DNA of 64,000 bases from the NCBI GenBank assembly GCA_045605445.1, contig JAZUPZ010000029.1, positions 26,265 to 90,264 of the forward strand. The letters run 5' to 3'. Below the pieces are notes generated by a model. That model saw only the letters and a list, made by a program, of their open reading frames with translations. It did no database searches and was not told the origin of the DNA. Origin of the DNA: Clostridia bacterium (GTDB taxonomy: Bacteria > Bacillota > Clostridia > RGIG6154). The stretch's first letter is position 1, and every line of letters begins with the position of its first letter. The translations under genes were made by a program, and so were the position numbers. Shown piece by piece: positions 4,301 to 17,653 of the stretch.

Positions 4301-7300
4301 CGAAATACGGTGCTGCAATGACCGGTAAAGGTCAGAAAATCGCCAGTGATACTTACGACTTTACCTCTGAAGGTAAGCTTATTGAAAGCTACGATTCCGA
4401 CGGAAACCCGATTCTTTATTATGATGAGTCCTTCGATATGACCCCTGTTGTTACTTATGACCATAACAACGGCAGCGCTGTTCTTGAAAAGGTAAGAGTA
4501 AAGAAAGGCGAAAAAGCAGACCTTACCGTTACAGCTAAAATGGGTAACCTCATTTTCCTTGGCTGGAATACAGATAAAAATGCAACCGAAGCTCTTACAA
4601 GCTACACAGTTGATGGAGATGTAACTCTTTATGCAATTTTCACAGATACAGTTGCAGGCGGAACCTGCGGGGACAATCTTACCTGGCAGTACAAGGTTGA
4701 CAAAACTCTGTTTATAACAGGTTCAGGGGCTACATACAGCTGGAATAATGCTGAAGATGTTCCCTGGTATGCTTACAGAAACGAAATTGAAAGAGTGGTT
4801 CTTGACGAAGAAATAACAAATATCGGCAACAACACTTTGGCAGGCTTGTCAAAAATTAAAACACTTAATATCCCTGAAAAAACACTTTATATAACAACTT
4901 CTTTAATGGGATGTTCAGCTCTTGAAGAAATAACAGTATCTTCAGGTAACACAAGATATAATTCTATAGACGGCGTACTTTACGGATATGAAGATTCAAC
5001 TCTTATTCTCTATCCTCAGGCAAAAGAAGAAGCTTCTTACGACCTTCCTGCAACAGTTAAGGTAATATTCCCATATGCTTTTGCGGAAAGTAAGCTTGAA
5101 GAAATAACTCTTACTTCCATTATTGTTAAAATTGAAGAATATGCCTTCTACGGTTGCGAAAACCTCAAAAAGGTTAAATACCCATTAACTTCAGATAAAT
5201 GGGAAAAAGTTTATGTGCTTGATGGAAACGACTGTCTTACAAACGCTCTTGAATGTGCGGCAAAAATGTATACAGTAACCTACGATGCAAACGGCGGAAC
5301 ATGCGCAACATCTTCTGTTCAGGTAGCAGAAGGCAAACAGGCAGACCTTACGGTTACCGCAGAAAAAGCAGGATATGTTTTTGCAGGCTGGAACACGGAT
5401 AAAAATGCTGCAACAGGCTTTGAATCTTTCGCGGTTAATGAAGATATTACTCTTTATGCAATATATGTTGAAGCAAACGATGTGGTTCTTTGCTCTGACG
5501 GATATTACAGATACTATGTAGGAGGAGTTGCCCAGACAGGCTTTTGGATAATTAACGGCTATAAGTACTACTTCTCAACTGCAGCGGCAAAATACGGAGC
5601 GGCACTTACAGACTCAACAGTTAAAATCAAAGGCGATTCTTATACCTTTGACAGCAAAGGAAGAGTATGTGAAAACGGAGAAGCGGTTCTCTTTGCGCCG
5701 TCTGTTACGGCGGAAGCAGGGGAAATGTCAGCTTCTCAGAGCACAACCTCTCTTAAATGGTCAGTTTCAGCAACAAATGCAAAGGTAAACGGCTACAAAA
5801 TTTACAGAGACGGTGAGCTTATCGCTGAAGAAGAGTTTGCGCTCAATGCTCTCTTCATTCAGGGGGAATACAAAAACAACGGCTCAGGAGTTTATGAATA
5901 TATCTTTGAGCCGAAAACAACAGAAATAACTTATAGAGACGAACATCTCGACCAGAACACAACTTATAATTACACTCTTGCGGTAAGCTTTGAAGGCGGA
6001 GAGGTAAGCGTAGATGCTTCTGTTCTTACCGAGGCTTATGCTTCAAGATATGTAACATATGATAAGGCAACAGACGGCTGGTATTATTATATCAACGGCG
6101 TTGCTCAGTCAGGCTGGCAGGTAACTCCCGACGGTTATAAATATTATTTCTCAAAGAGCACAGGAAAAGCTCTTAAGGGTAAAAACGTAAGAATCGGCTC
6201 CGATAACTACGACCTTGCAGATTACGGCGCACTTATCGACTCTTACGACTCTGAAGGAAATCCGGTTCTTTACAGAGAAATTAACGGCTGGTATACCAGC
6301 GCCGAGGACGGAAGCATAAGATATTACGACAACAACGTTTACCGTACCGGATGGCAGTACATTGACGGATATAAATATTATTTCTCAATGTCAAAGGGTA
6401 ATCTTCTTACGGGAATGACTCAGGTAGGAAGCACAAAGTATGACCTTGGCGAAGACGGTGCCTGGGTTGGTTATTACCAGACAGAATATACCGTCGAAGA
6501 ATCACCTAAGGCAACAGATGTTGTTCTTGGCGAAGACGGCTATTACAGATATTATCCAAACGGGGAAGAGGGCGAACCTCTTACCGGCTGGAAGGTTCTT
6601 CCGGGTGAAGATGCTTATTATAAATACTATTTCTCTAAAGCTTCAACAAAATACGGTGCGGCTGTAACAGGCTATGCCGTTCAGGTTGGTATCGGGGAAT
6701 ACAACTTCTTCCCCACAGGTGCGCTTCTTAACGTAACTGTTGACGAAAACGGTCAGGCAGTAATGGAACCATACTCATTAAGCCTTGAACAGGGGGCTAA
6801 AAACGGCCTTATCCTTGATGAAGACGGAAAATACAGATATTATATCGACGGTGAATTCCAGTCAGGCTGGATTACAATCGACGGAAGCCGTTACCTTTTA
6901 AGAAGAGCAGACGGCTCAGCAGTAACCGACGTTAACTATAAATACGGAAGCTATTATTACGACTTTACAGAAGACGGAAAGCTCGTAAGAATGAAAAACG
7001 GAGCAAGCTCAATTTATAAAATAACCTTTGCTCCCGGAGAAGGAACAGGCGAAGAAATTGTTCTTAATAAGGTTGCAGAAGACTGCTTTAAGTATGTTCT
7101 TCCTGAAAATACCTTTGAAAAAGAAGGCTATGTATTCTTCGGCTGGTCAGACGGGGTTAACACTTATGCTGCCGGAACTAAAGTTCAGGTTATGAAGGAT
7201 ACTGTGTTTACCGCAGTCTGGGCAGAAGAAGAGGTTGAAATAATAGCAAACGGAACAGTTTCCGACACAATTACCTGGTCTCTTAATGCAAAGGGATTAC

Positions 7301-10300
7301 TTAAAATTGAAGGTTCGGGAGAAATGCCTGCTTACTTTATCGGAAGCTCTCCCTGGTACAGCTACAGAGAATCAATAAAATCCGTAAGCTTCTCAAATGA
7401 GCTTTTAAATATCGGTCAGTATTCAATGTACGGCTGTGCAATTGAAAGCGTTGAAATTCCCGAAGGTGTTAAGTACATCGGCGACCACGTTTTTGAAAAC
7501 TGTGACAACCTTAAAACAATATCAATTCCTGCAAGTGTAATTGATATTGAAACCTATACTTTTACCAGCACCCCGGCCCTTGAAAGCATAACAGTTGCAG
7601 AGGGCAATAAAAATTATTATTCCAAAGACGGAGTTCTCTTCTATAAATACGGCAGCAGTGTAAAAATTATTCGTTACCCTTCAGCAAAAGAAGGGGAATA
7701 TACAGTTCCCGAGGATGTAGTGTTGATTGACATAATGGCTTTTGAAAACTGCGATAAACTTACAAAGGTAACAATGACCAACGTTCAGAGCATTGACCGT
7801 TCTTCATTTGCTTCCTGCGGTGCCCTTGAAACAGTTGTTACAGGCGACAAGCTTATTACAATTGGAGATTACGCTTTCTCTGCTTGTACTTCTCTTAAGG
7901 AAATAACATTGCCAAAAACTCTTAAATCGGTAGGCAATTATGCATTTAATAACTGTAAAGCGCTTTATAAAGTAAACTATGGCGGTTCTTTTGCAACCTG
8001 GGTTAAAATCACAATCGGAACAAACAACAGTTATCTTAAAGGTGCAGGCTTTGTTTACGGCTCTAAAGACTACACAGTTACCTTCGTCGACTGGGACGGA
8101 ACTACAATTGCAACATTGACTGTTCCCGACGGTGAGGGAGCAACAGCTCCTTCTGACCCCGAAAGAGAAGGCTATACCTTCACCGGCTGGGATAAAGATT
8201 TCTCCGTTGTAACAGGGGATATAACAGTAACAGCTCAGTATGAGGCGAATGTTGTTGTTCCTGAAACCGTTGCTTCAGGTTCTTGCGGTAGCGGCATAAC
8301 CTGGGAACTTGATAGTCTGGGAACAATGACAATCAGCGGAACAGGAAGCATGAGAAATTACAGCAATGACAGCTCAACTCCCTGGTATTCATACAGCAGT
8401 CAGATTAAAAAGGTTGTAATCGGAGAGGGTGTAACAAGAATAGGCGATTATTCATTTGCTTATTGCAGAAACATAACCGAAGTAACCCTCCCTGACACCT
8501 TGAAAACATTGGGTTTATGGTCTTTGGCATATACAGGAATAACAAAGCTTGATGTGCCTGAAGGCGTTACAAAAATAAATGAACGTGCATTGCTTGGTTG
8601 CTTATCCCTTGCAGAGCTTTCGTTGCCGAAATCACTTAGTTTTATCGGGGCACTTGCTTTTAACGGTTGTACGGGGCTTGAAAAAGTAGTTTACTATGCT
8701 TCATATGCAACCTGGACAAAAGTAACCATTGAAACGGGAAATGACCATCTTACAGGTGTAAGATTTATTTATCAGTACTCCGAGTGCAAGGTAACCTTTG
8801 TTGATTTTGACGGCACTGTTCTTAAAACAGAAACGGTAGAAGAAGGTAACCGAGCAACCGCACCTGAAGCTCCTTCAAGAGACGGTTATACCTTCATTGG
8901 CTGGGACATTGAATTTTCAAATGTAACTGAAGATATAACTGTGACGGCACAGTATGAAAAAATATGTTATACAGTAACCTTTGTTGACTTTGACGGCACT
9001 GTTCTTAAAACAGAGTCGGTAGAGGTGGGCAGTGGCGCAACAGCCCCTGAAGATCCCACAAGAGATGGTTATACCTTCACAGGTTGGGATGTTGGCTTTA
9101 CAAACGTAACTTCAAACCTGACCGTAACAGCCCAGTACGAAAGTGTTGTTAAAACATATAAAGTTATCTTTATTGATGAAATCGGTAATATAATTTCTGA
9201 ACAGACAGTTGAAGAAGGAAAGTCTGCTGTTGAACCTGAAGCACCTGTAAAATCGGGATATACATTCATAGGTTGGAATAATGATTTTACAAATGTAACA
9301 AGCAATCTGTATGTTATGCCACAGTATGAAAAAATCAAGTTAAATTACACTGTGAATTTTGTTGATTATGACGCAACGGTGCTTAAAACAGAAACAGTTT
9401 TAGAGGGCAACGGAGCAACCGCACCTTCAAATCCTGAAAGAGAAGGATATATTTTCCTTGGATGGAACAGTCTTTTTGCAAAAATAGACAGAGACAGAAC
9501 AATTACTGCAATTTATGACCCGGAAGGTCTTGGAAATATTTCTCATACCGGCACTTTTGGAAATTACAGAGATTTGAATAATGCTCATTACACAAAAATC
9601 TTAATCTGGACTCTTTACGACACAGGGATTCTTACAGTTAACGGAGCAGCAACTGCATATGGTGTAATGACAACATCAAGCGGCGGTGCTCCATGGAGCG
9701 ATTATGCGTCATCTGTTAAAGAAGCAAGAGTTTCAAAGGGTATTAAAGAAATTCTTATTGGCGCATTTGCAAACTGTACCAATTTGACAAAGGTAACCTT
9801 CAGCGAAGATATTACAACAATCGGCAGAAACGTATTTTTCAACTGTCCTGCATTGACAGATATTTATTTTGAAGGCACAAGAGAACAGTGGGAAGATGTT
9901 GCAATTGACTCAACCAACGATAGTATGCTTGAAAATGTAACAGTTCATTGCTCAGATGATGTTAAAACTTATACAGTAACCTTCCTTGGCTACAACGGAC
10001 AGGTTTTAAGTGAACAGACAGTAAATGAAGGGGAAAGCGCAACAGCTCCCGAAGCTCCTTCGGTTGACCTTTATACCTTCACCGGTTGGAATGTTGATTT
10101 TTCAAAGGTTACTTCAGATTTAACCGTAACCGCTCAGTACGAACGTTCTTCATTTATGGTATATTTCATCGGATATGAAGGCATTATTGAAGCTCAGATT
10201 ATTCCAAAGGGTGGTTCTGCAACTGCACCTGATGTACCTGCGGAAATAGACGGAAATGTGTTTATCGGCTGGGACGGTGACTTTGAAAACGTTACATCAG

Positions 10301-11382
10301 ACCTTAACATTTATGCAATATACACAATGGTTGACCCGGGCCCGGGACCAATGCCTGAAGACGGCGGTGAGTTCGGCGACGGTCTTACCTGGCACTATGA
10401 CGGAAATATGACCCTTACAATCAGCGGTAATGGTGCAATTCCCGATTATGACCCAACAAGCGGTGATATGGTTCCGTGGCAGTCATACGATATGTATATT
10501 AAGGTAATTGAAATTGAAGAAGGAATAACCGGAATAGGCAGTTACGCTTTCGGATATCTTGTGGAAGCAATGAGCATTTCAATTCCGTCCACAGTAACCT
10601 ATATTTCCGAACAGGCGTTTTTGGAACTTATGGCAATTGAATTAGTAACAATCAGCGACGATAATAGTGAATATACAGTAAAAGACGGTATGGTATTTAC
10701 TAAGGATGAAACTCATCTTGTTTACTGTCCTACACATTACAGTTCAAATGTTGTTGAGCTCGACGAAAAGGTTAAAACAATAAACTCTTATGCTTTTGCA
10801 TATAACCATTTCCTTGAAGCGGTAAATGTTGATCCTGCAAATGAATATTTCCATTCAGATGAAGGAGTTTTGTATGAAACCGCAACTTCAACTCTTGTGT
10901 ACTATCCTGCAGGGAAAATGGATGAAACCTATACAATTCTCGAAGGAACGGAAATTGTCAGAGAAAAAGCATTTTATTACACCTCTACGCTTACAGAACT
11001 GTGTGTTCCTGCAAGTGTGAAGCATATTAACGGTAACTGCTTCTCCAATGCAACATCAATTGCAACAATAACCGTTTCAGAAGATAATGAAACTTATGCA
11101 TCTGTTGAAGGTAATTTAACAGATAAAGAAGGACTGAACTTGTATTATTGTCCTACCGGAACAGTTCCAAACGGAGTTCAGGAAATCTGGACAGGCGCTT
11201 TTGATTTGAACTGCGTGTTTGAAATAACAATCCCTGTAAGTGTTACACAGGTTCACTCAAATGTGTTCTATACATTTGTGAATCAGATAAATTATCTCGG
11301 CTCTTACGAAGAATGGAATGCAATTTATATTTCAAATGAGGGTAATGATTATCTTGAGTATGCAAATATAAACTACAATTAA
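1348..11382 (+). CDS. Giant (3344 aa) secreted cell-surface protein with cell-wall-binding YG repeats, BspA-type LRRs, Fn3 domains and Listeria-Bacteroides (Flg_new) repeats
   Basis: An RBS ggagg precedes the ATG. The N-terminal signal peptide is MAKRLLSALLATVMLLTMFTLPSFA. There are many GWQ..DGYKYYFS..SKYGAAMTG choline-binding-type repeats and YAF..C..L..ITLP BspA-LRR segments. The YTVTFVD.DGTVL...GYTF.GW modules are typical of Flg_new, and the TW..GYKVYR segments are Fn3-like. Confidence 0.9.
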   Translation: MSGGKIMAKRLLSALLATVMLLTMFTLPSFAETLYSGTCGDGLTWTIDSEGVFTLSGSGAMPDYARGTTPWYKYRAEITSVVIEPGITRVGNYAFYLTKILDNITLSDDVTEIGSYAFATCGSVSTATFGSGVSSIEKGAFSGTSIGEITYMGSEKQWYEIQTESGNDSVINSYDIKFMDPGVRLDSDGYYRFYIDGEIQTKWQVSPEGYKYYFSTSSSKYGAALTGKQQKISSTYYDFTDDGKLIESYDSNGDPVLFCDPEQGFIYTIIYDAGEGVASVADKRFRVSTQADLTVTAEKEGYIFAGWTDTFNSNQCISSYEVTGDGVLYAVYINGADLKVELCDDGYYRYYVGGVAQTGWQVAADGYKYYFSTSSSKYGAAMTGTSVKIGGSYYDFTSDGKLIESYDSSNNPVLFYDESADCRPVVTYDYKTNGGEAADASSLRVTKGEKADLSVVARKSGSVFVGWNTNSDAAVAITSLTVTENVTLYAIFADYANNEVVLCEDGYYRYYIGGVAQTGWQMTPTGHKYYFSTSSSKYGAAMTGASVKIGGSYYDFTTEGKLIASYDNDGNPVLYYDPLYDASVEKHTVTYDYKTNGGSSAGEETKQVIHGNKADLTVTAEKADSTFLGWNTDKNADTALSELVVNEDVILYAIFKESGSSKVVLDSDGFYRYYINGEAQIGFWVLDGYKYYFSGSNATKGNAYVSQTATIGGKEYTFNSRGVVVDSNNVPVVYKPNAEVVYLSAVYSEEGTTLTWTGAVENGTISGYKVYRAEGENAGDDDFSLIAVVNETLDGTSYKGTYNSTYSKYDFETPVAQVEFVDSTTQADKVYIYKVEAIAEGDSASSKVAIRTKTGTERYVSYDEATDRWYYYIAGSIQTGWKVTPDGHKCYFSTSTTSTGAALEYDASIGSTVYNFTSYGALINSYDSDSNAVLYTEEIEIPGVSVKEIKLDSDGYYRYYIDGIIQTKWQTGPDGYRYFFSTSSSKYGAAMTGKGQKIASDTYDFTSEGKLIESYDSDGNPILYYDESFDMTPVVTYDHNNGSAVLEKVRVKKGEKADLTVTAKMGNLIFLGWNTDKNATEALTSYTVDGDVTLYAIFTDTVAGGTCGDNLTWQYKVDKTLFITGSGATYSWNNAEDVPWYAYRNEIERVVLDEEITNIGNNTLAGLSKIKTLNIPEKTLYITTSLMGCSALEEITVSSGNTRYNSIDGVLYGYEDSTLILYPQAKEEASYDLPATVKVIFPYAFAESKLEEITLTSIIVKIEEYAFYGCENLKKVKYPLTSDKWEKVYVLDGNDCLTNALECAAKMYTVTYDANGGTCATSSVQVAEGKQADLTVTAEKAGYVFAGWNTDKNAATGFESFAVNEDITLYAIYVEANDVVLCSDGYYRYYVGGVAQTGFWIINGYKYYFSTAAAKYGAALTDSTVKIKGDSYTFDSKGRVCENGEAVLFAPSVTAEAGEMSASQSTTSLKWSVSATNAKVNGYKIYRDGELIAEEEFALNALFIQGEYKNNGSGVYEYIFEPKTTEITYRDEHLDQNTTYNYTLAVSFEGGEVSVDASVLTEAYASRYVTYDKATDGWYYYINGVAQSGWQVTPDGYKYYFSKSTGKALKGKNVRIGSDNYDLADYGALIDSYDSEGNPVLYREINGWYTSAEDGSIRYYDNNVYRTGWQYIDGYKYYFSMSKGNLLTGMTQVGSTKYDLGEDGAWVGYYQTEYTVEESPKATDVVLGEDGYYRYYPNGEEGEPLTGWKVLPGEDAYYKYYFSKASTKYGAAVTGYAVQVGIGEYNFFPTGALLNVTVDENGQAVMEPYSLSLEQGAKNGLILDEDGKYRYYIDGEFQSGWITIDGSRYLLRRADGSAVTDVNYKYGSYYYDFTEDGKLVRMKNGASSIYKITFAPGEGTGEEIVLNKVAEDCFKYVLPENTFEKEGYVFFGWSDGVNTYAAGTKVQVMKDTVFTAVWAEEEVEIIANGTVSDTITWSLNAKGLLKIEGSGEMPAYFIGSSPWYSYRESIKSVSFSNELLNIGQYSMYGCAIESVEIPEGVKYIGDHVFENCDNLKTISIPASVIDIETYTFTSTPALESITVAEGNKNYYSKDGVLFYKYGSSVKIIRYPSAKEGEYTVPEDVVLIDIMAFENCDKLTKVTMTNVQSIDRSSFASCGALETVVTGDKLITIGDYAFSACTSLKEITLPKTLKSVGNYAFNNCKALYKVNYGGSFATWVKITIGTNNSYLKGAGFVYGSKDYTVTFVDWDGTTIATLTVPDGEGATAPSDPEREGYTFTGWDKDFSVVTGDITVTAQYEANVVVPETVASGSCGSGITWELDSLGTMTISGTGSMRNYSNDSSTPWYSYSSQIKKVVIGEGVTRIGDYSFAYCRNITEVTLPDTLKTLGLWSLAYTGITKLDVPEGVTKINERALLGCLSLAELSLPKSLSFIGALAFNGCTGLEKVVYYASYATWTKVTIETGNDHLTGVRFIYQYSECKVTFVDFDGTVLKTETVEEGNRATAPEAPSRDGYTFIGWDIEFSNVTEDITVTAQYEKICYTVTFVDFDGTVLKTESVEVGSGATAPEDPTRDGYTFTGWDVGFTNVTSNLTVTAQYESVVKTYKVIFIDEIGNIISEQTVEEGKSAVEPEAPVKSGYTFIGWNNDFTNVTSNLYVMPQYEKIKLNYTVNFVDYDATVLKTETVLEGNGATAPSNPEREGYIFLGWNSLFAKIDRDRTITAIYDPEGLGNISHTGTFGNYRDLNNAHYTKILIWTLYDTGILTVNGAATAYGVMTTSSGGAPWSDYASSVKEARVSKGIKEILIGAFANCTNLTKVTFSEDITTIGRNVFFNCPALTDIYFEGTREQWEDVAIDSTNDSMLENVTVHCSDDVKTYTVTFLGYNGQVLSEQTVNEGESATAPEAPSVDLYTFTGWNVDFSKVTSDLTVTAQYERSSFMVYFIGYEGIIEAQIIPKGGSATAPDVPAEIDGNVFIGWDGDFENVTSDLNIYAIYTMVDPGPGPMPEDGGEFGDGLTWHYDGNMTLTISGNGAIPDYDPTSGDMVPWQSYDMYIKVIEIEEGITGIGSYAFGYLVEAMSISIPSTVTYISEQAFLELMAIELVTISDDNSEYTVKDGMVFTKDETHLVYCPTHYSSNVVELDEKVKTINSYAFAYNHFLEAVNVDPANEYFHSDEGVLYETATSTLVYYPAGKMDETYTILEGTEIVREKAFYYTSTLTELCVPASVKHINGNCFSNATSIATITVSEDNETYASVEGNLTDKEGLNLYYCPTGTVPNGVQEIWTGAFDLNCVFEITIPVSVTQVHSNVFYTFVNQINYLGSYEEWNAIYISNEGNDYLEYANINYN
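8791..9157 (+). repeat. Two adjacent near-identical ~183-bp coding modules (Flg_new repeats) inside the giant gene
   Basis: gtaacctttgttga(t/c)tttgacggcactgttcttaaaacaga... occurs at 8791 and again at 8975 with high nucleotide identity. Confidence 0.7.
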
Positions 11383-11562: not shown

Positions 11563-11592
11563 TTAAAAGGAGGGCTTAGCCCTCCTTTTAAA
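11563..11592. terminator. Bidirectional hairpin terminator (ggagggc-tta-gccctcc flanked by A/T runs), sits at the mgtE stop
   Basis: A perfect 7-bp GC-rich stem has an A-run on one side and a T-run on the other. Confidence 0.6.
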
Positions 11593-12940
11593 TATGCAGT
11601 ATACTTGTAGCAATCTGAAAATAAATTACAAGGCTTAAAGCGTCAACGATAGTTGTAATAAAGGGGCTTGCCATAACGGCAGGGTCCAGCTTTATTTTTT
11701 CTGCAAAAAGCGGAAGAATACAGCCGATCAGCTTTGCAATAACAACCGTTGCAACAAGGGTAATTGAAACAACCAGCGCAACCTCAACGCCTATTCTGTC
11801 AATAAACATAAGCTTTAAAAGGTTGATTGCGGCAAGAGTAAAACCGCACAAAAATGCAACTCTTATTTCTTTCCACATAACCCTGAACATATGTGAAAAC
11901 TCAATTTCACCTAAGGATAAGCCTCGTATTACCGTAACGGAAGACTGTCCGCCGGCATTACCGCCCGTACCCATAAGCATAGGAATAAAGCTTGTAAGTA
12001 TAACAAATTTGCCGAGAGCATCTTCGTAAAAGCTTATAATTCCGCCGGTGAATGCCGCTGAAATCATAAGGAACAAAAGCCAGGGGATTCTCTGCTTCCA
12101 GGTTTCAAAAACTCCGGTTTTAAGATAAGGCTTTTCAGAAGGTACGATAGCCGCCATTCTTTCAACATCCTCTGTTGCCTCTTCTTCCATAACGTCAACA
12201 GCATCGTCAACAGTTACAATGCCCACAAGGCGGTCTTCTTTGTCAACGATGGGAAGGGCAATAAGGTCGTATTTTGTAAAAATTGCCGCAACATCTTCTC
12301 TGTCATCAGTGGTTGTTGCTTTAATAACGTTCGTATCCATTAAATTTTCGATAAGAGCATCGGGAGATGCAAGAACCAGGTCTTTTAAGGATACAACGCC
12401 CTCTAATTTTCTTTTTGCATTTGTAACATAGCAGGTGTAAATCGTTTCCTTGTCCATTTCGTTTTTGCGGATGTAAGTAATTGCCTCCGCAACGGTCATA
12501 ATCTTTTTAAGGGAAACGTATTCTGCCGTCATAATTGTTCCCGCGCAGTTTTCGGGGAACTTAAGGTATTGGTTAATAAGATTTCTTGTTTTTGGCGAGG
12601 TGTTCTGCATAACACGTTTAACAATGCTTGCAGGAAGCTCTTCAATCATATCAACCGCATCGTCTGTTGCCAGGTCCTCCATAATGTGGGAAATTTCAAC
12701 GTCGGATATGCTTTGAATAATTTCGTGTTGCTTGTCAATTTCAAGATAAGCAAAAACGTCCGATGCAAAGTCTTTCGGAAGAGTTCTGAAAATAACAAGA
12801 GTTTTTTCAGCTTCAAGACCGCTGATAAAATCAGCAACATCGGATTCGTTCATTTCAATCAGGATTTCCTGAACTTTTTTATATCTTTTTTTATTGATAA
12901 GTTCAAGGAGTAAATCTCTGACAGTTGTGATTTCTTCCAT
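11588..12940 (-). CDS. mgtE: Magnesium transporter MgtE
   Basis: It has an MgtE N-domain, a CBS pair and a C-terminal TM domain. I moved the start to MEEITT (ATG at 12940) because a GGAGG RBS lies 7 nt upstream; the track ORF start at 12958 includes that RBS. Confidence 0.9.
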   Translation of the reverse strand: MEEITTVRDLLLELINKKRYKKVQEILIEMNESDVADFISGLEAEKTLVIFRTLPKDFASDVFAYLEIDKQHEIIQSISDVEISHIMEDLATDDAVDMIEELPASIVKRVMQNTSPKTRNLINQYLKFPENCAGTIMTAEYVSLKKIMTVAEAITYIRKNEMDKETIYTCYVTNAKRKLEGVVSLKDLVLASPDALIENLMDTNVIKATTTDDREDVAAIFTKYDLIALPIVDKEDRLVGIVTVDDAVDVMEEEATEDVERMAAIVPSEKPYLKTGVFETWKQRIPWLLFLMISAAFTGGIISFYEDALGKFVILTSFIPMLMGTGGNAGGQSSVTVIRGLSLGEIEFSHMFRVMWKEIRVAFLCGFTLAAINLLKLMFIDRIGVEVALVVSITLVATVVIAKLIGCILPLFAEKIKLDPAVMASPFITTIVDALSLVIYFQIATSILHI

Positions 12941-12958
12941 GTTTTGTCCTCCAATCAT

Positions 12959-13160
12959 TTAGTTGTCAATAACTTGATTGGCAAACAGAAACAAACCGTC
13001 AACCGTTACAAGACGCATCGGTTACGGCTTTTTGTATTCTGTTGTTGCACAATCGCCCGTTACCGCCGGCGTCCATAAATTCACTTCCTTTTTCTTAATT
13101 TTTGTATAACAGTATTATTTTATCATAAAAATTATATGATTTCAACATTGTTTGCAACAA
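12959..13160 (-). promoter_or_regulatory. Long structured mgtE leader with a promoter-like TTGTTG-18-TATAAT and an internal terminator-like hairpin plus U-tract (candidate attenuator or riboswitch expression platform)
   Basis: Read on the minus strand, the hairpin gccgtaaccg...cggttgacgg is followed by tttgtttctgttt about 45 nt upstream of the start codon. Confidence 0.4.
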
Positions 13161-13164
13161 TTTA

Positions 13165-13192
13165 TAAAAGGGCGACCCTGCAAGGGTCGTCT
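13165..13192 (-). terminator. Terminator of the helicase gene
   Basis: Hairpin cgaccct-gca-agggtcg followed on the minus strand by cccttttat. Confidence 0.5.
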
Positions 13193-13199
13193 GAATATT

Positions 13200-15038
13200 T
13201 TATCCGCAATAATTAACAAGTGCCGAAATAAGCTGTCCGTCGCAATTTTTCCAGAATTCAACGTCACAAACAACAATTAAATTTTTCTTTGCTCTTGAAA
13301 TGGCTGTGTTTATAAGCTCAAGCCCCTTTGAACGACGGTTGGTGCTGTCGGTAAAATACATATTTTCTCTGTCGCAAACGGAAAGAATAACCGTGTCCCA
13401 TTCCTGCCCCTGCGACCTGTGAACCGTCATAACCCTGTCGGTATATTTTCTTATAAGCGCTTCCTGGCTTTTGTAGGGAGTAAGAACTGCAAAGTCGGAA
13501 AGGTGGTAATCCTTAATAATTTCAAGAATTGCCTCCGCTTCTTTAACGCTTGAACGGGAACCGCCGCTTACACCCTTTGCATCAATTGCAAGAATGTTCG
13601 TTTCGTCTTCGGCAAGAGAGGAAAAGTGGTTCTGATAAACATAGCTTTCAAGAATTTCCGCAATTCCGCTTCCGAAACGGTGAGTTTCGTTAAGGTCTGC
13701 CTTTGCGGTATATTCAAAATTGGGAGAAGCTCCTAAAATATAGTCCTGAAAGAGCTCGTATACGTCCTTTTTGAAAATATCTTCTGCATAAACTGCCGAC
13801 TGTGCCCATATAACTGCAGGCTGAAAGAGAGGGTTTGAAAAGTTGTTTTCATCCATCTCGCATACAGGAGGCAACTGCATATGGTCTCCCAAAAAGGTTA
13901 TGGGGCACCTCATAGAAAGAAGCACCGTTGCCTTTACAAGGTTGCAGTAGCAGGCTTCGTCAAGAAAAAGGTGAGCAGCAGCTTTTTTGTTTTTTTCCAT
14001 GGCGCTGTTCATATTATAGGCAATAAACTTATCAACGGTGCAGGCAACAATTCTTATATTCCCTTTTATAAGATAAAGGAAAAGGTTTTCCCTTGCTCCC
14101 GCAAGCATTTTGCCAAGCTGTTCAATTCTCTCCAAAGATGCTTCTCCGTATTTTTTCTCGGTTTTTTCAATTACCTCTTTAAGCTTCTTTTTAAGAGGAA
14201 GGGGAGTGTCGCTTTTTTTAACCTCCTGCTTTAATTTTATGCAGTTTAAAAGCTCGTTTTTCTGAATGTTGTATTCCGCTGTAAGACGGTTTATAATCTC
14301 CTTCTCGCAAACCTGAGGATAGGTAGAAGAAAGGCTTTCCGTTGCATATCCCAGCCTTGCAACCAAAGAAAGGTCAAAGCCTTCCTCTTCAAGAACGGGC
14401 AGAAGCCCGTTTAAGGTCTGGTCAAGGGCAACGTTTGTGGGAGCAGTAATAAAAATAATGTCCTCATCGGTGTCATTCTTAAGATAGTTTAAAACGCAGT
14501 TTGCAAGAACAAATCTGGTTTTGCCTGTTCCCGGCGCACCCCATATGTATGAAAATGGCTGTGAGAAAACAGTTTTAATTGCTTTTTCCTGACAGGGAGA
14601 GGGGAGAATTTTTTTACTTATATCAAGCTCCGGGGAAAGCTTTGGCAGCTCTTCCGGAAAGGCGATTTTTTCGCCGTGAGCTTTATACCATTTTATAACC
14701 CTTTCCACAAGAAAACGCATATTAACGTTTATAACAACGTCCGATGCTTTTATATCGGCGGAAATATTTTCGTTAAATTCAACTGTAAGGGTTCTTTTGA
14801 AAAAGTCGCTGTCTTTAACAGAAAAATCTTCATCACCGTATTTTTTGCCGTTGATTTCAATTTCAAATCCGCAACTGTCAAAAAGTCGCTTTGAAAGGCG
14901 CATAAAAAAGACCTTTTCCTTCTTTCTGACAAGGTCTTCAACAAGTATATGTTCAATTCCCAGATCATTGTCAATAAGATAGTTGAGGTAAACCTGAGAA
15001 CCGTATATAAAGCTGTTTTTAATCTCTTTAATATCCAT
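13200..15038 (-). CDS. Superfamily-1 (Upf1-like, AAA_11/AAA_12) DNA/RNA helicase with an uncharacterised ~150-aa N-terminal domain
   Basis: Walker A is GAPGTGKT, motif II is DEAC, and a C-terminal TVHRSQGQEWD motif is present. The gene stands alone between mgtE and the GH28-like genes. Confidence 0.75.
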   Translation of the reverse strand: MDIKEIKNSFIYGSQVYLNYLIDNDLGIEHILVEDLVRKKEKVFFMRLSKRLFDSCGFEIEINGKKYGDEDFSVKDSDFFKRTLTVEFNENISADIKASDVVINVNMRFLVERVIKWYKAHGEKIAFPEELPKLSPELDISKKILPSPCQEKAIKTVFSQPFSYIWGAPGTGKTRFVLANCVLNYLKNDTDEDIIFITAPTNVALDQTLNGLLPVLEEEGFDLSLVARLGYATESLSSTYPQVCEKEIINRLTAEYNIQKNELLNCIKLKQEVKKSDTPLPLKKKLKEVIEKTEKKYGEASLERIEQLGKMLAGARENLFLYLIKGNIRIVACTVDKFIAYNMNSAMEKNKKAAAHLFLDEACYCNLVKATVLLSMRCPITFLGDHMQLPPVCEMDENNFSNPLFQPAVIWAQSAVYAEDIFKKDVYELFQDYILGASPNFEYTAKADLNETHRFGSGIAEILESYVYQNHFSSLAEDETNILAIDAKGVSGGSRSSVKEAEAILEIIKDYHLSDFAVLTPYKSQEALIRKYTDRVMTVHRSQGQEWDTVILSVCDRENMYFTDSTNRRSKGLELINTAISRAKKNLIVVCDVEFWKNCDGQLISALVNYCG

Positions 15039-15128
15039 ATTTTAATTGTAGCATAAAACCCCTGATTGTTCAATATTTATTGACAAAACAAAAAGGCTAT
15101 AGTAAAATTTAACAGAAGAAAGGAGTGC

Positions 15129-16376
15129 TTGAAGATGGCTGATATAAAAGCTTTCGGTGTTGTGGGAGACGGCACCCTTGAAGAAACAAGAAAAATTCAG
15201 AATGCAATTGACGAATGTGCCTTAAAAGGCGAAGCTCTTGAGTTTACGGAAGGGGTTTATCCTGCGTTTTCTCTTGAACTTAAAGATAATTCGCATATTG
15301 TTTTAACTGAAAATGCAACCTTAAAGGCTTGTGAGGATTGGAGCGGTTGGGAAAAAACCGACAAAATGCCTTTTGTTTTTGCAGATGGTAAAAGCAACAT
15401 AACAATTGAAGGGAAAGGTAAAATAGACTGTAGCAGAAAAGTTTTTCACGACTGTGAGGGAAGCCCTGTGACCCGTTTAAGACCAGAGCATACCCTTATG
15501 TTTGAAAACTGCTCCGATGTTGAAATAAAGGGAATTACGGTTAAGGATTCCGTTTGCTATAACATTTATCTTAAAAACAGCAGTAATGTAACTGTTGAAG
15601 GTATTGTAATAAGAAATCCCGAATGGTGGAAATCTCATTTAAGCGACGGAATAGCAATCTCAGGCGGAGAAAATTTCGTGATTGAAAATTGCGATATTGA
15701 AACGGGTAACGATGCTCTTTCAATTAAAACTGCCGAGGGAGAAACCGTTAAAAATGTTAAAATATCCGACTGTGTTTTAAGAACAAGCAGAAACGGACTT
15801 AAAATAGGAACAACCCTTTATGGCGACGTGTCAGGCGTTGAGTTCAGAAATATTAAAATTTATGACCACAGAGAAAAAAATCTTGTAAGACATCCCGAAC
15901 AGGGAGGTCACGTTTGGTCTGCAATTGCCCTTATTACCACAAGGGGCGGAAATATTTCAGACTTTACGGCAGATAACGTTACTGCAGATTTTGCAAATAC
16001 GCCTTTCCTTATGGTGGCTGAACAAAGGTTTGGTTCAAATGCCGCTATAGGGAAAATAAGCAATATTACAATAAACGATTTTCACGTTAACCACTCAATC
16101 AGAGCGGCTCAGATTAACATTGCAAACGGAAGTGTTGCTGAAAACATAAAAATTACAAATAGCACCATAATGAACTATGAAAATCACGACGGTGAGTTTA
16201 AATGCGAAACTGCCTGCGGAAGATGGTATCCCGCAGGGTACACCTTCGGTCATATGCCGGCTTACGGCCTTTACGGTAACAACGTTAAAAATGTTGACCT
16301 GACCGGCAGCGTTTTCAAGGAGGATATTTACTCAAAAAGACCGTCAACAATCTTAAAAGGCGGTGATTTGTTATGA
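15129..16376 (+). CDS. Pectate-lyase-superfamily / GH28-like right-handed beta-helix glycoside hydrolase (paralog 1)
   Basis: The N-terminal FGVVGDGT..T..IQNAID motif is typical of the Pectate_lyase_3/GH28 family. Beta-helix repeats are NxxI.N-like. Confidence 0.6.
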   Translation: MKMADIKAFGVVGDGTLEETRKIQNAIDECALKGEALEFTEGVYPAFSLELKDNSHIVLTENATLKACEDWSGWEKTDKMPFVFADGKSNITIEGKGKIDCSRKVFHDCEGSPVTRLRPEHTLMFENCSDVEIKGITVKDSVCYNIYLKNSSNVTVEGIVIRNPEWWKSHLSDGIAISGGENFVIENCDIETGNDALSIKTAEGETVKNVKISDCVLRTSRNGLKIGTTLYGDVSGVEFRNIKIYDHREKNLVRHPEQGGHVWSAIALITTRGGNISDFTADNVTADFANTPFLMVAEQRFGSNAAIGKISNITINDFHVNHSIRAAQINIANGSVAENIKITNSTIMNYENHDGEFKCETACGRWYPAGYTFGHMPAYGLYGNNVKNVDLTGSVFKEDIYSKRPSTILKGGDLL

Positions 16377-17653
16377 CAGATATAAAAACCCTGGGCGTTC
16401 TTTGTGACGGAACCTGCGAAACGGAAAAAATTCAGAATGCAATAAACCTTTGCGCCGAAAAGGGCGAGGTTCTGGAATTTACAGAAGGCGTTTATTATAC
16501 GGCGTCTCTGGAGCTTAAAAACAACAGCCATCTTTATCTTAATGAAAATGCTGTTATAAAGGCTTCCGAAAATGAAAATGACTGGGAAAACTGCAATCAT
16601 AAACCGCTTATAAATGCAGTTGAAAAAGAAAATATAACAATAGAAGGAAAGGGGAAAATTGACTGCAGCGGCGATAAATATCACGATTTTGACGGAAACC
16701 GCTCTCTCGGATGGCGTCCCGAAACAACAATAAATTTTCAGAACAGTAAAAATATAAAGCTTTATGATTTTACTGCAGGAAACTCCGTTGCCTGGACAGT
16801 TCATTTTAACGATTGCGAATATGTAGGCATAGAAAGGGTAATCTTAAGAAATCCCGACTGGTGGTGCGGAAAAAGCAACGACGGTTTTGATATAAACGGT
16901 TGCCGCCACGTTAAAATAAAAGATTGCGACGTGGAAGTAGGCGACGATGGTATCTGCCTTAAAAATTATCACAATGGCGAAGACAGAAAGCCAATGTTCG
17001 ATATTCTGGTTACCGACTGTATCGTTCGTTCAACCTGCGGAGCTCTTAAAATAGGAACCGAAACTCAGGGCGATATCTACGACGTTCGCATAGAAAACAT
17101 AAAAATAGAGGATCACAGAAATCCCAACATTTTCCGTCATCCCGATTTCGGCGGACACTCATTAACTGCCATTTCAATTCATTCAAATGACGGCGCCCAT
17201 GTTCACGATATAACCTTTAAAAATATTCATGCAACCTACGCAAATACGGGAATATTCATATTCCTTCAGAAAAGATATATGATGATAAACAACCCCAATC
17301 AGAAAAAAGCGGTAGTGCTTAAAGAACCGAAAATGGGCAAAATTTCAAATATCTTAATTGACGGGCTTACGGTTGAACACGCTCAGAGAGCCAATCAGAT
17401 AAATGTAGGCGAAGGCGGACTTGTAGAAAACGTAAAAATAAAAAATGTAAATATAACCGTATACGAGGATAACAACGGCGATTACGAGGCAATAGTTCCC
17501 GAAAGCCGCAGCTATCCCGACGGTTACGCCTACGGTCATATGCCTGCCTACAGTCTCTTTGCAAGAAGAGTGAAGAACCTTTCCTATGAAGAAAATATAA
17601 GGGTTAGAGATGTGTTTAATACCGGTCGCCCGGCAATAATTGTAGAACCTTAA
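16373..17653 (+). CDS. Pectate-lyase-superfamily / GH28-like glycoside hydrolase (paralog 2), translationally coupled to paralog 1 (ATGA overlap)
   Basis: It is paralogous to the upstream gene, with LGVLCDGT..T..IQNAIN and shared GHMPAYGLY / GHMPAYSLF C-terminal motifs. Confidence 0.6.
   Translation: MTDIKTLGVLCDGTCETEKIQNAINLCAEKGEVLEFTEGVYYTASLELKNNSHLYLNENAVIKASENENDWENCNHKPLINAVEKENITIEGKGKIDCSGDKYHDFDGNRSLGWRPETTINFQNSKNIKLYDFTAGNSVAWTVHFNDCEYVGIERVILRNPDWWCGKSNDGFDINGCRHVKIKDCDVEVGDDGICLKNYHNGEDRKPMFDILVTDCIVRSTCGALKIGTETQGDIYDVRIENIKIEDHRNPNIFRHPDFGGHSLTAISIHSNDGAHVHDITFKNIHATYANTGIFIFLQKRYMMINNPNQKKAVVLKEPKMGKISNILIDGLTVEHAQRANQINVGEGGLVENVKIKNVNITVYEDNNGDYEAIVPESRSYPDGYAYGHMPAYSLFARRVKNLSYEENIRVRDVFNTGRPAIIVEP

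What the first reader, a model, noticed from the sequence alone, without database searches (positions are those of the whole stretch)
13200..15038. Solitary Upf1-like SF1 helicase with an unrecognised N-terminal domain: candidate single-gene nucleic-acid defence protein
The 612-aa protein has clear SF1 motifs (GAPGTGKT, DEAC, TVHRSQGQEWD) of the AAA_11/AAA_12 Upf1/DNA2 type. Its first ~150 aa match nothing I recognise. It is a monocistronic gene with its own terminator, wedged between mgtE and carbohydrate genes, and has no replication or repair partners. Prokaryotic Upf1-like helicases with variable N-terminal effector domains are recurrent in anti-phage systems such as the Nhi nuclease-helicase family. 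An MmeI-type RM gene lies 21 kb away.
Basis: inference. Interest (0 to 1): 0.5.

Follow-up and report, generated by a model that had tools for sequence, protein, structure and literature searches.

The report
Stand-alone Upf1-like helicase, probably housekeeping
This gene encodes an intact Upf1-type helicase whose unrecognised front end is most likely the normal built-in barrel of such helicases, and because it sits at a fixed housekeeping position while its closest cousins are fused into an operon with the DNA polymerase gene dnaE, it looks more like a DNA replication or repair helper than a new anti-phage weapon.

Summary
A 612-aa ORF lies at 13200-15038 (-) with intact SF1 motifs and AAA_11/AAA_12 Pfam hits, and its first ~147 aa match nothing by sequence.

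1. A confident AlphaFold model (pLDDT 90.9) folds residues 1-124 as helix, seven-strand beta-barrel, helix. This is the stalk + 1B arrangement that precedes RecA1 in Upf1-like helicases. No nuclease fold or catalytic residue pattern is present.
2. The N-terminal module occurs only in this one helicase family (469 clusters among 1.84 billion representatives), nearly always at residues 1-150.
3. Orthologs at 71% and 65% identity occupy the same site between mgtE and a CCA-enzyme/MGDG-synthase block. They keep the same leaderless promoter and evolve like their neighbours.
4. The sister clade (45% identity) lies directly downstream of a standard dnaE in 8 of 8 loci.

Longer (~800 aa) relatives do occur in integrated elements (repressor-helicase-serine recombinase) and sometimes beside defence genes, so a defence role is not excluded.

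Best reading: an accessory 5'-3' helicase of DNA replication or repair. It is a new member of a known kind, of modest interest.

The parts
13200..15038 (-). Complete CDS of the 612-aa Upf1-like SF1B helicase (stop codon at 13200-13202)
   Evidence: ORF list. Pfam AAA_11 + AAA_12. The whole-protein model matches the IGHMBP2, UPF1, SETX and Sen1 helicase cores.
14667..15038 (-). Residues 1-124: helix (3-23), seven-strand beta-barrel (28-106), helix (108/109-124). Interpreted as the stalk + 1B-type barrel.
   Evidence: AlphaFold models of the whole protein and of the domain alone give the same topology. The only full-span fold hits are UPF1, IGHMBP2 and Dna2, and they are weak (E about 0.03). No nuclease fold was found. 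The domain is conserved across the family.
14598..14666 (-). Residues 125-147: linker with the conserved prolines P128 and P132
   Evidence: No regular secondary structure in the model. P128 and P132 are invariant in the short subfamily.
14307..14597 (-). Residues 148-244: first part of RecA1 (1A), containing Walker A (GAPGTGKT, nt 14517-14540) and motif Ia (APTNVA, nt 14427-14444)
   Evidence: Motif coordinates. Invariant columns in the 66-sequence alignment. Domain boundaries are inferred from the model.
14064..14306 (-). Residues 245-325: helical insertion in RecA1. This is the site where the ~800-aa relatives carry about 170 extra coiled-coil residues.
   Evidence: Helices 245-273, 280-297 and 302-325 in the model. 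Insertions after residues 268 and 292 in the long forms. The long-form region matches coiled-coil and SMC chains.
13719..14063 (-). Residues 326-440: second part of RecA1, with Walker B (DEAC, nt 13950-13961) and motif III (GDHMQLPPV, nt 13863-13889)
   Evidence: The boundary at about residue 440 is inferred.
13203..13718 (-). Residues 441-612: RecA2 (2A), with TVHRSQGQEWD (nt 13395-13427) and NTAISRAK (nt 13287-13310)
   Evidence: Pfam AAA_12 and UvrD_C_2. Motif coordinates.
15045..15073 (-). Dedicated promoter: TTGAAC, 17-nt spacer, TG-extended TACAAT ending 6 nt before the ATG, with no Shine-Dalgarno sequence. Inferred to give a leaderless mRNA.
   Evidence: Consensus scan and sequence. The same layout is seen in the 71% and 65% orthologs.
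13163..13189 (-). Terminator-like hairpin CGACCCTTGCAGGGTCG followed by CCCTTTTATA, 10 nt after the stop codon
   Evidence: It is not conserved in L002, so read-through into the mgtE leader is possible in relatives.

Best explanation
The gene encodes an intact stand-alone Upf1-like (SF1B) helicase made only of the canonical Upf1-type module. The parts, in order, are an N-terminal stalk helix, a small beta-barrel (1B-type), a second stalk helix, a linker, RecA1 with a short helical insertion, and RecA2. There is no nuclease or other effector domain.

By analogy with solved Upf1-like helicases, ATP binding and hydrolysis between the two RecA domains would drive 5'-to-3' translocation along a single strand. 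The barrel and stalk would sit over the nucleic-acid channel and be needed for strand separation. This mechanism is inferred and was not tested.

In this organism's lineage the gene is a vertically inherited chromosomal gene with its own conserved leaderless promoter, and it is under purifying selection. Its sister clade is translationally coupled to the standard replicative-type dnaE. I therefore think it most likely acts as an accessory helicase of DNA replication or repair, for example clearing RNA:DNA hybrids, flaps or bound proteins on the lagging strand. I do not think it is an anti-phage system.

The longer relatives that ride on integrated elements suggest that the chromosomal short form descends from, or gave rise to, an element-borne helicase.

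Shown: identity, architecture, synteny, selection, and dnaE coupling in the sister clade. Inferred: polarity, substrate and cellular role.
For: Identity: AAA_11/AAA_12 hits. All SF1 motifs are intact and invariant across 66 relatives.

Whole-protein fold: a model with pLDDT 90.9 and pTM 0.88 aligns over about 690 columns with the IGHMBP2, SETX, UPF1, ZNFX1, Sen1, Aquarius and Dna2 helicase cores at probability 1.00.

N-terminus: it folds as helix, seven-strand barrel, helix. The only PDB hits spanning the whole domain are UPF1, IGHMBP2 and Dna2. No nuclease fold appears. The conserved residues are hydrophobic or structural: Y17, L21, F109, L110, V111, W117, Y118, plus D106 and R113. The canonical order of stalk, then 1B barrel, then core, and the requirement of stalk and 1B for unwinding but not for ATPase activity, are documented for nsp13 in PMC11939599. 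The N-terminal profile finds only 469 clusters among 1.84 billion, nearly all at residues 1-150 of this same helicase.

Synteny: the 71% and 65% orthologs lie between mgtE and the MGDG-synthase/CCA/TPR/RluD block. Helicase identity (71% and 65%) falls within the range of the neighbours (73-97% and 66-86%). pN/pS is 0.18/0.57, similar to the CCA enzyme at 0.16/0.65. The promoter is conserved.

dnaE link: the sister clade in the NJ tree has dnaE directly upstream in 8 of 8 loci, representing 6 distinct proteins, with gaps of -4 to +24 nt, while the outer flanks differ. That DnaE passes the standard equivalog cut-off (1431 vs 1260 bits) and fails the error-prone DnaE2 cut-off (577 vs 939). One junction is a TAATG overlap preceded by an RBS.

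Other tight upstream partners elsewhere in the family also belong to DNA metabolism: a UDG-family protein, a Metallophos phosphoesterase and LexA/CI-like S24 repressors. No defence gene lies within 20 kb in the window.
Against: In the window itself there is no dnaE or repair gene next to the helicase, so the replication link is borrowed from a clade that is only 45% identical.

The lineage is sparsely sampled, with three genomes that have usable context. The next MgtE relatives are at most 64% identical and are not syntenic. Presence/absence polymorphism therefore could not be tested.

The wider family is patchily distributed across Clostridia, Bacteroidota, Methanomassiliicoccales and Campylobacterota. 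Its long forms sit in repressor-helicase-integrase modules and sometimes beside RM, Druantia, Septu, CBASS, Hhe or GmrSD genes. That pattern is what an accessory or defence gene would show.

Most characterised Upf1-like helicases act on RNA. The substrate here is unknown.
Confidence: 0.55

Rival explanations
1. It is a single-gene anti-phage or anti-mobile-element helicase. It would sense or strip foreign nucleic-acid structures by itself, with the divergent N-terminal barrel acting as the sensor, and it happens to have become fixed at a chromosomal site in this lineage.
For: The helicase core is most similar, among defence models, to Mokosh MkoA (E 2.6e-33). Long-form relatives lie within two genes of type I, IIG and IV restriction enzymes, DruE, PtuA, mad2/mad3 (PADLOC mads models), Hhe, a CBASS cyclase with a 2TM effector, GmrSD and an OLD-like ATPase, and next to AIPR in Chitinophaga. 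Others lie between a CI/LexA-like repressor and a serine integrase in integrated elements, a classic position for prophage-encoded exclusion genes. The distribution across phyla is patchy.
Against: No effector domain and no partner gene are present. The N-terminal barrel is not a nuclease. The locus is housekeeping and syntenic at 65-71% identity, with neighbour-like divergence. The sister clade is coupled to dnaE in 8 of 8 loci. Defence neighbours were seen in only very roughly one long-form locus in ten, no background rate was computed, and several of those loci are related to each other, such as the Agathobaculum MmeI loci. The family is absent from 50,697 phage and 72,556 plasmid records.
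Confidence: 0.2
2. It is an RNA helicase for RNA quality control, decay or RNP remodelling, like eukaryotic Upf1 and IGHMBP2, and is unrelated to DNA replication.
For: The closest solved structures are RNA or RNA/DNA helicases: IGHMBP2, UPF1, SETX/Sen1, ZNFX1 and Aquarius. The syntenic block next to the gene contains RNA-modifying enzymes, namely the CCA-adding enzyme and an RluD-type pseudouridine synthase.
Against: Those RNA genes are transcribed divergently, and the only adjacency conserved beyond the immediate clade is to dnaE. Other tight partners in the family are DNA-metabolism proteins: UDG, Metallophos and S24 repressors. Dna2, which is also a close structural match, is a DNA helicase. 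Activity on RNA:DNA hybrids would fit both this rival and the best explanation.
Confidence: 0.13
3. It is a stranded remnant of an integrated mobile element, a former element replication or excision helicase, that persists without a host function.
For: Clostridial long-form relatives are fixtures of repressor-helicase-serine recombinase modules in integrated elements. The short clade nests among Clostridia long forms in the NJ tree.
Against: The ORF is intact with all motifs invariant. It is under purifying selection comparable to the CCA enzyme. It keeps a conserved dedicated promoter in three genomes. No integrase, repressor or repeat boundary lies nearby in the window.
Confidence: 0.07

Closest known systems
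Eukaryotic Upf1-like SF1B helicase cores (IGHMBP2, UPF1, SETX/Sen1, ZNFX1, Aquarius)
   Same: The same two RecA domains with AAA_11/AAA_12 signatures and motifs I, Ia, II, III, V and VI. There is an accessory helix/beta-barrel module N-terminal to RecA1 and a helical insertion within RecA1. The whole-chain Foldseek match has probability 1.00 and TM about 0.6.
   Different: Only 15-19% identity. The N-terminal barrel has no detectable sequence similarity and only weak fold similarity to their 1B domains. It lacks the CH, R3H, zinc-finger and other regulatory domains. It is prokaryotic, and in the sister clade it is linked to dnaE.
Dna2 (and functionally Pif1): SF1B helicases of lagging-strand and Okazaki-fragment processing
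   Same: An Upf1-like helicase fold, with Dna2 among the structural matches for both the whole protein and the N-terminal module. The sister clade has a genomic link to a replicative polymerase.
   Different: No PD-(D/E)xK nuclease domain and no Fe-S cluster. The functional analogy is an inference, not a test.
Mokosh MkoA/MkoC (anti-phage system)
   Same: The helicase core is homologous: PADLOC MkoA E 2.6e-33 over residues 152-599. Both are COG1112/Upf1-like, as described in 10.1101/2022.05.11.491447.
   Different: The match covers only positions 622-1084 of the 1112-position model. There is no PLD nuclease, fused or adjacent, and no serine-threonine kinase domain.
Nhi (nuclease-helicase immunity, Staphylococcus)
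   Same: A single polypeptide of about 600-700 aa with an SF1 helicase related to Dda, Upf1 and Dna2.
   Different: Nhi is defined by an N-terminal PD-(D/E)xK nuclease (first 230 aa) and a helicase overlapping DUF2075 (10.1101/776245). Here the N-terminus is a small beta-barrel between two helices with no nuclease fold, and there is no DUF2075 hit.
Bacterial SF1B helicases RecD2 and Dda
   Same: SF1B helicases with weak sequence hits: NCBIfam RecD2 at 60 bits and the PHROGs Dda-like helicase family.
   Different: Far below the family cut-offs (60 vs 500 bits). The accessory domains differ, and this protein carries the AAA_11/AAA_12 signatures rather than AAA_30.

Membership tests
Upf1-like SF1B helicases (Pfam AAA_11 + AAA_12) | Both Pfam domains score above the gathering thresholds | tested here: met
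   AAA_11 72.7 bits (cut-off 27) and AAA_12 45.3 bits (cut-off 27).
Upf1-like SF1B helicases (Pfam AAA_11 + AAA_12) | Intact motifs I (GxxGxGKT), II (DExx), III (GDxxQLPP) and V/VI | tested here: met
   GAPGTGKT 167-174, DEAC 360-363, GDHMQLPPV 384-392, TVHRSQGQEWD 538-548, NTAISRAK 577-584. Their core residues are invariant or nearly invariant (at least 90%) in 66 relatives.
Upf1-like SF1B helicases (Pfam AAA_11 + AAA_12) | Three-dimensional match of the whole helicase core to solved members | tested here: met
   Foldseek gives IGHMBP2 at E 6e-24, with SETX, UPF1, ZNFX1, Sen1, Aquarius and Dna2 all at probability 1.00 and about 690 aligned columns.
Upf1-like SF1B helicases (Pfam AAA_11 + AAA_12) | Stalk helices plus a 1B beta-barrel N-terminal to RecA1 | tested here: inconclusive
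Upf1-like SF1B helicases (Pfam AAA_11 + AAA_12) | 5'-to-3' ATP-dependent unwinding | not testable with these tools
   This needs biochemistry.
Nhi | N-terminal PD-(D/E)xK nuclease domain (10.1101/776245) | tested here: not met
Nhi | Helicase overlapping DUF2075 | tested here: not met
   No DUF2075 (PF09848) hit at E of 1 or better.
Mokosh (type I or II) | COG1112/Upf1-like helicase domain | tested here: met
   MkoA PDLC03920 at E 2.6e-33, helicase region only.
Mokosh (type I or II) | PLD-family nuclease, fused (type II) or in an adjacent gene (type I) (10.1101/2022.05.11.491447) | tested here: not met
   There is no PLD domain in the protein. The neighbours are MgtE and GH28.
Mokosh (type I or II) | Serine-threonine kinase domain in MkoA (type I) | tested here: not met
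   No kinase domain is found. The protein matches only positions 622-1084 of the 1112-position model.
RecD2 | NCBIfam equivalog TIGR01448 above its cut-off | tested here: not met
   60.1 bits against a cut-off of 500.
   The window, L001 and L002 share the mgtE / CCA-MGDG site with no defence genes. The nearest RM gene is 21.5 kb away. The long-form relatives only partly meet the criterion.
   This needs challenge assays.

The most novel reading that the evidence does not exclude
The short clade to which this gene belongs is a previously unrecognised replisome-associated Upf1-like helicase of a Clostridia lineage. It would be co-produced with DnaE in the sister clade and would act on the lagging strand, removing RNA:DNA hybrids, flaps or roadblocks. 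That would make it a bacterial counterpart of the roles played by Dna2, Pif1 and Sen1 in eukaryotes, recruited from a helicase carried by integrated mobile elements.
Probability: 0.3. Interest if true: 0.6.

Novelty: new member of a known kind. Interest (0 to 1): 0.3.

Why it matters
As a defence candidate it is weak, because it has no effector, no partner and no island. The useful outcomes are three.

1. A caution: in Upf1-like helicases, an N-terminal ~150 aa with no recognisable sequence is expected to be the stalk/1B module and should not be read as an effector domain.

2. A small, unnamed prokaryotic Upf1-like family can now be defined (469 clusters at 50% identity). It has a family-specific N-terminal barrel and occurs in three settings: element-borne (repressor-helicase-integrase), chromosomal and syntenic (Methanomassiliicoccales, Helicobacter, this lineage), and dnaE-coupled.

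3. The strict dnaE-helicase coupling in the sister clade gives a concrete, testable lead to an accessory replication helicase in PolC/DnaE-type bacteria. Apart from Dna2-like enzymes, I know of no Upf1-like helicase assigned to DNA replication. That statement rests on my own knowledge, not on a search.

Tried and rejected
- Rfam on the whole window at gathering thresholds, and permissively on the helicase-mgtE spacer, gave no real hit. There is no M-box.
- Nhi membership was rejected: no PD-(D/E)xK nuclease and no DUF2075.
- Mokosh membership was rejected: no PLD nuclease and no kinase domain.
- RecD2, RecD and IGHMBP2 equivalogs were rejected, all far below their cut-offs.
- I initially read the ~790-aa relatives as sharing only the C-terminal half, because the best BLAST segment covered 46%. 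That was wrong. The N-terminal profile hits them at E 1e-36 to 1e-8, and the length difference is a coiled-coil insertion after residues 268 and 292.
- The phage (INPHARED) and plasmid (PLSDB) tblastn searches found no match at 1e-10.
- The first metagenome scan, with the single protein, found nothing.
- The presence/absence test via MgtE relatives was uninformative. The 93% relative's contig is cut 320 nt upstream of mgtE, and the next lineage (63%) is not syntenic.
- The search for a conserved small partner ORF found only clade-specific upstream genes (an archaeal 145-aa protein and Clostridia XRE/S24 repressors). The window has none.
- The literature searches found no description of this family or of a dnaE-linked Upf1-like helicase.
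Full report
OBSERVATION

Pfam assigns AAA_11 (residues 149-393, E 5.3e-20) and AAA_12 (493-593, E 9.9e-12). Both are above their gathering scores, and weaker hits to other SF1 helicase families overlap them.

The quoted motifs are present: GAPGTGKT at 167-174, DEAC at 360-363 and TVHRSQGQEWD at 538-548. So is the Upf1-type motif III, GDHMQLPPV, at 384-392.

No Pfam, NCBIfam, PADLOC or PHROGs model covers residues 1-~100; the furthest-reaching hits, two PHROGs families, begin at residues 98 and 106. No NCBIfam model reaches its cut-off; for example RecD2 scores 60 bits against a cut-off of 500.

The neighbours are as stated:
- MgtE at 11588-12958 (-).
- Two GH28 glycoside hydrolases at 15129-17653 (+).
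- MGDG synthase, the CCA-adding enzyme, a TPR protein, an RluD-type pseudouridine synthase and an AraC regulator.
- An MmeI-type IIG enzyme at 36541-39312, 21.5 kb away.

A terminator-like hairpin follows the stop codon at 13189..13173.

ARCHITECTURE

An AlphaFold2 model built on a 66-sequence alignment is confident (mean pLDDT 90.9, pTM 0.88). Foldseek aligns the whole chain, over about 690 columns and at probability 1.00, with the helicase cores of IGHMBP2 (E 6e-24), SETX, UPF1, ZNFX1, Sen1, Aquarius and Dna2. A sequence profile of the family finds the same set in the PDB (IGHMBP2 7.5e-25, UPF1 1e-18).

The region that looked unrecognisable folds as helix 3-23, seven beta-strands between 28 and 106, and helix 109-124, followed by a linker to RecA1. 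Modelled alone it gives the same topology at pLDDT 89.

This is the order found in Upf1-like helicases. A helical stalk and a beta-barrel 1B domain precede the RecA core, and in nsp13 they are needed for unwinding but not for ATPase activity (PMC11939599). The sequence alignments to UPF1, NAM7 and Sen1 begin at about residues 120-148 of this family and at about positions 180-212 of their helicase-core constructs. Those proteins therefore also carry a comparable pre-RecA1 module.

No PD-(D/E)xK, HNH, PLD or other nuclease fold appears. The conserved N-terminal residues are structural ones: Y17, L21, F109, L110, V111, W117 and Y118, plus D106, R113, G27 and G122.

I conclude with about 75-80% confidence that the N-terminus is this family's version of the stalk/1B module. 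It is not an effector domain.

THE FAMILY

A profile of the N-terminal 147 residues, run against 1.84 billion representative proteins, finds only 469 clusters at E of 1e-3 or better. Nearly all of them carry it at residues 1-150 of a protein of about 780-810 aa. The shorter hits look like fragments, and two proteins carry it behind an N-terminal extension.

The same profile hits the helicase ORF in nearly all of the 92 loci held at that point. The ~800-aa relatives differ from this 612-aa protein by about 170 residues inserted after positions 268 and 292, inside the helical insertion of RecA1. That insertion is coiled-coil-like.

The N-terminal module and the helicase core are therefore one evolutionary unit.

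Members come from Clostridia (Oscillospiraceae, Ruminococcaceae), Bacteroidota, Methanomassiliicoccales archaea, Helicobacter and Wolinella, and a few other groups. An NJ tree, computed without support values, groups them largely by taxon.

GENOMIC CONTEXT OF THIS GENE'S CLADE

The 71% ortholog (L001, GCA_964566065.1) and the 65% ortholog (L002, GCA_965354685.1) lie at the same site. On one side is the RluD-TPR-CCA-MGDG synthase block and on the other is mgtE. The GH28 pair is present in the window and L001 but absent in L002.

Helicase identity (71% and 65%) lies at the fast end of the neighbours' range (73-97% and 66-86%) but within it, and is close to that of the CCA enzyme (73% and 67%). 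Uncorrected pN/pS is 0.18/0.57 and 0.22/0.67, against 0.16/0.65 for the CCA enzyme. The gene is therefore under purifying selection and appears to be vertically inherited.

All three genes have an extended -10 element (TGcTACAAT or TGcTATACT) ending 6-7 nt before the conserved ATG, a -35 element at 17-nt spacing in the window and L001, and no Shine-Dalgarno sequence. This indicates a conserved dedicated promoter and probably a leaderless mRNA. The terminator is not conserved in L002.

The caveat is that only three genomes of this sparsely sampled lineage have usable context.

THE SISTER CLADE

Proteins about 45% identical over their full length, which also lack the coiled-coil insertion, form the sister group in the tree. 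In all eight loci recovered, the helicase lies directly downstream of a DnaE of about 1140 aa. The gaps range from -4 to +24 nt.

The eight loci are L003, L004, L005, L006, L011, L012, L095 and L096. They represent six distinct proteins, and the five in alignment A1 are 60-76% identical to each other. Everything outside the gene pair differs among the loci.

That DnaE passes the curated cut-off for the standard DNA polymerase III alpha equivalog (1431 vs 1260 bits) and fails the error-prone DnaE2 model (577 vs 939). One junction is a TAATG stop/start overlap behind an RBS-like GGGAGAG.

No long-form locus, out of about 130, has dnaE adjacent. This is the strongest functional clue available, and it contradicts 'no replication partners' at the level of the subfamily.

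THE WIDER FAMILY

Contexts are heterogeneous.

- Methanomassiliicoccales loci share strong synteny: a 145-aa unknown protein upstream, Sel1-repeat and trypsin-like genes, and an XPD-type helicase nearby.
- Helicobacter loci follow hypD.
- Clostridial long forms repeatedly sit between an XRE-type repressor, two of which carry a LexA/CI-like S24 domain, and a large serine recombinase.
- The same module recurs in the few IMG/VR proviral contigs that carry the family: about 8 among 2.9 million contigs, mostly at contig ends.
- Tight upstream partners elsewhere include a UDG-family protein and a Metallophos phosphoesterase.

Scans of the +/-1 and +/-2 neighbours of 52 genome loci and 78 metagenome loci found recognised defence proteins. 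These were type I, IIG and IV restriction enzymes, DruE, PtuA, mad2/mad3 (PADLOC mads models), Hhe, a CBASS cyclase with a 2TM effector, GmrSD and an OLD/AriA-like ATPase, each in one to three loci. The scans also found five serine and three tyrosine recombinases.

Three limits apply to these counts:
- The tool reports counts per family rather than per locus.
- Several of the loci are related, for example the Agathobaculum MmeI loci.
- I computed no background rate.

I therefore estimate only that very roughly one long-form locus in ten has a defence gene within two genes.

The family is absent from 50,697 phage and 72,556 plasmid records at E 1e-10.

MECHANISM AND VERDICT

Shown:
- An intact Upf1-like helicase with no effector domain.
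- A family-specific N-terminal helix, barrel, helix module.
- Stable housekeeping synteny, purifying selection and a dedicated promoter in this clade.
- dnaE coupling in the sister clade.

Inferred from established knowledge of Upf1-like SF1B helicases (my own knowledge): ATP-driven 5'-3' translocation on a single strand, with the barrel and stalk required for strand separation.

Inferred from context: an accessory role in DNA replication or repair, for example clearing RNA:DNA hybrids, flaps or bound proteins for DnaE on the lagging strand. I put this at 0.55.

The rivals are:
- A helicase-only defence gene, 0.20.
- An RNA-metabolism helicase, 0.13.
- A stranded mobile-element remnant, 0.07.

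COMPARISON WITH KNOWN SYSTEMS

The protein is a member of the Upf1-like SF1B helicases by motifs, Pfam domains and fold.

It is not Nhi, which is defined by an N-terminal PD-(D/E)xK nuclease and a helicase overlapping DUF2075. Neither feature is present.

It is not Mokosh, which requires a PLD nuclease and, in type I, a kinase domain. Only the helicase part of the MkoA model matches.

It is not RecD2.

NOVELTY

This is a new member of a known kind. The family itself is unnamed, and the dnaE-coupled clade is a worthwhile lead. The gene in this window, however, is an ordinary-looking stand-alone helicase. Interest 0.3.

Noticed in passing
window 12959-13145 (minus strand), between the helicase terminator and the mgtE start codon: A block of about 75 nt in the mgtE leader is nearly identical in the window, L001, L002 and L093, although the flanking proteins are only 65-97% identical. 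It contains an RBS and a 25-codon ORF (MDAGGNGRLCNNRIQKAVTDASCNG in the window; its C-terminal half varies). Downstream, a CCAATCA...TGATTGGAGGA pairing could sequester the mgtE Shine-Dalgarno sequence. There is no Rfam match, so it is not an M-box by that criterion. It is a candidate uncharacterised riboswitch or leader-peptide attenuator for a Mg2+ transporter.
   Followed up: partly
L003:5075-10377, L004:5403-10736, L006:4161-9499, L011, L012, L095:1221-6478, L096: In the sister clade (about 45% identity), a standard dnaE and the Upf1-like helicase form a tightly coupled gene pair in 8 of 8 loci, with gaps of -4 to +24 nt and one TAATG overlap. The surrounding genes are otherwise unrelated.
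   Followed up: yes
L007:7604-12101, L033, L042, L063, L176, L180-L182: Oscillospiraceae integrated elements, some classed as viral by IMG/VR, carry a recurring module of XRE or LexA/CI-like repressor, ~800-aa helicase of this family, and large serine recombinase at one end of the element.
   Followed up: partly
L019-L028, L064, L071, L081, L084, L087, L091, L092; also L022, L075, L077, L078, L082: Methanomassiliicoccales archaea keep the helicase at a strongly syntenic site, with a conserved 145-aa protein of unknown function directly upstream and an XPD-type helicase nearby. Five contigs binned as Lachnospiraceae, Firmicutes CAG:194, Dialister, Prevotella and Bacteroidaceae share this archaeal synteny and are probably mis-binned.
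   Followed up: partly
window 15045-15073 and 15038; L001:10005-10045; L002:9965-10003: The helicase has no Shine-Dalgarno sequence. An extended -10 element ends 6-7 nt before the ATG in all three orthologs, which implies a leaderless transcript. The 14-aa N-terminal extension in the public gene call for P0002 runs through this promoter and is probably spurious.
   Followed up: yes
window 15129-17653: The two tandem GH28 genes between the helicase and the MGDG-synthase block are present in the window and L001 but absent from L002. They are an insertion or deletion within an otherwise conserved gene order.
   Followed up: no
window 1348-11382: A giant 3344-aa ORF with many internal repeats and an N-terminal signal-like sequence lies downstream of mgtE. 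In L093, a 1995-aa protein with LRR_5 and Flg_new repeats occupies the equivalent position downstream of mgtE. It is probably a cell-surface adhesin.
   Followed up: no
window 36541-39312; L048, L131, L133, L163: The MmeI-type IIG restriction-modification gene is confirmed, with all five MmeI Pfam domains. It is separated from the helicase by about 18 housekeeping genes. In Agathobaculum-like loci an MmeI-type gene does lie directly upstream of a long-form helicase, but those loci are related to each other, so this is probably one evolutionary event.
   Followed up: partly
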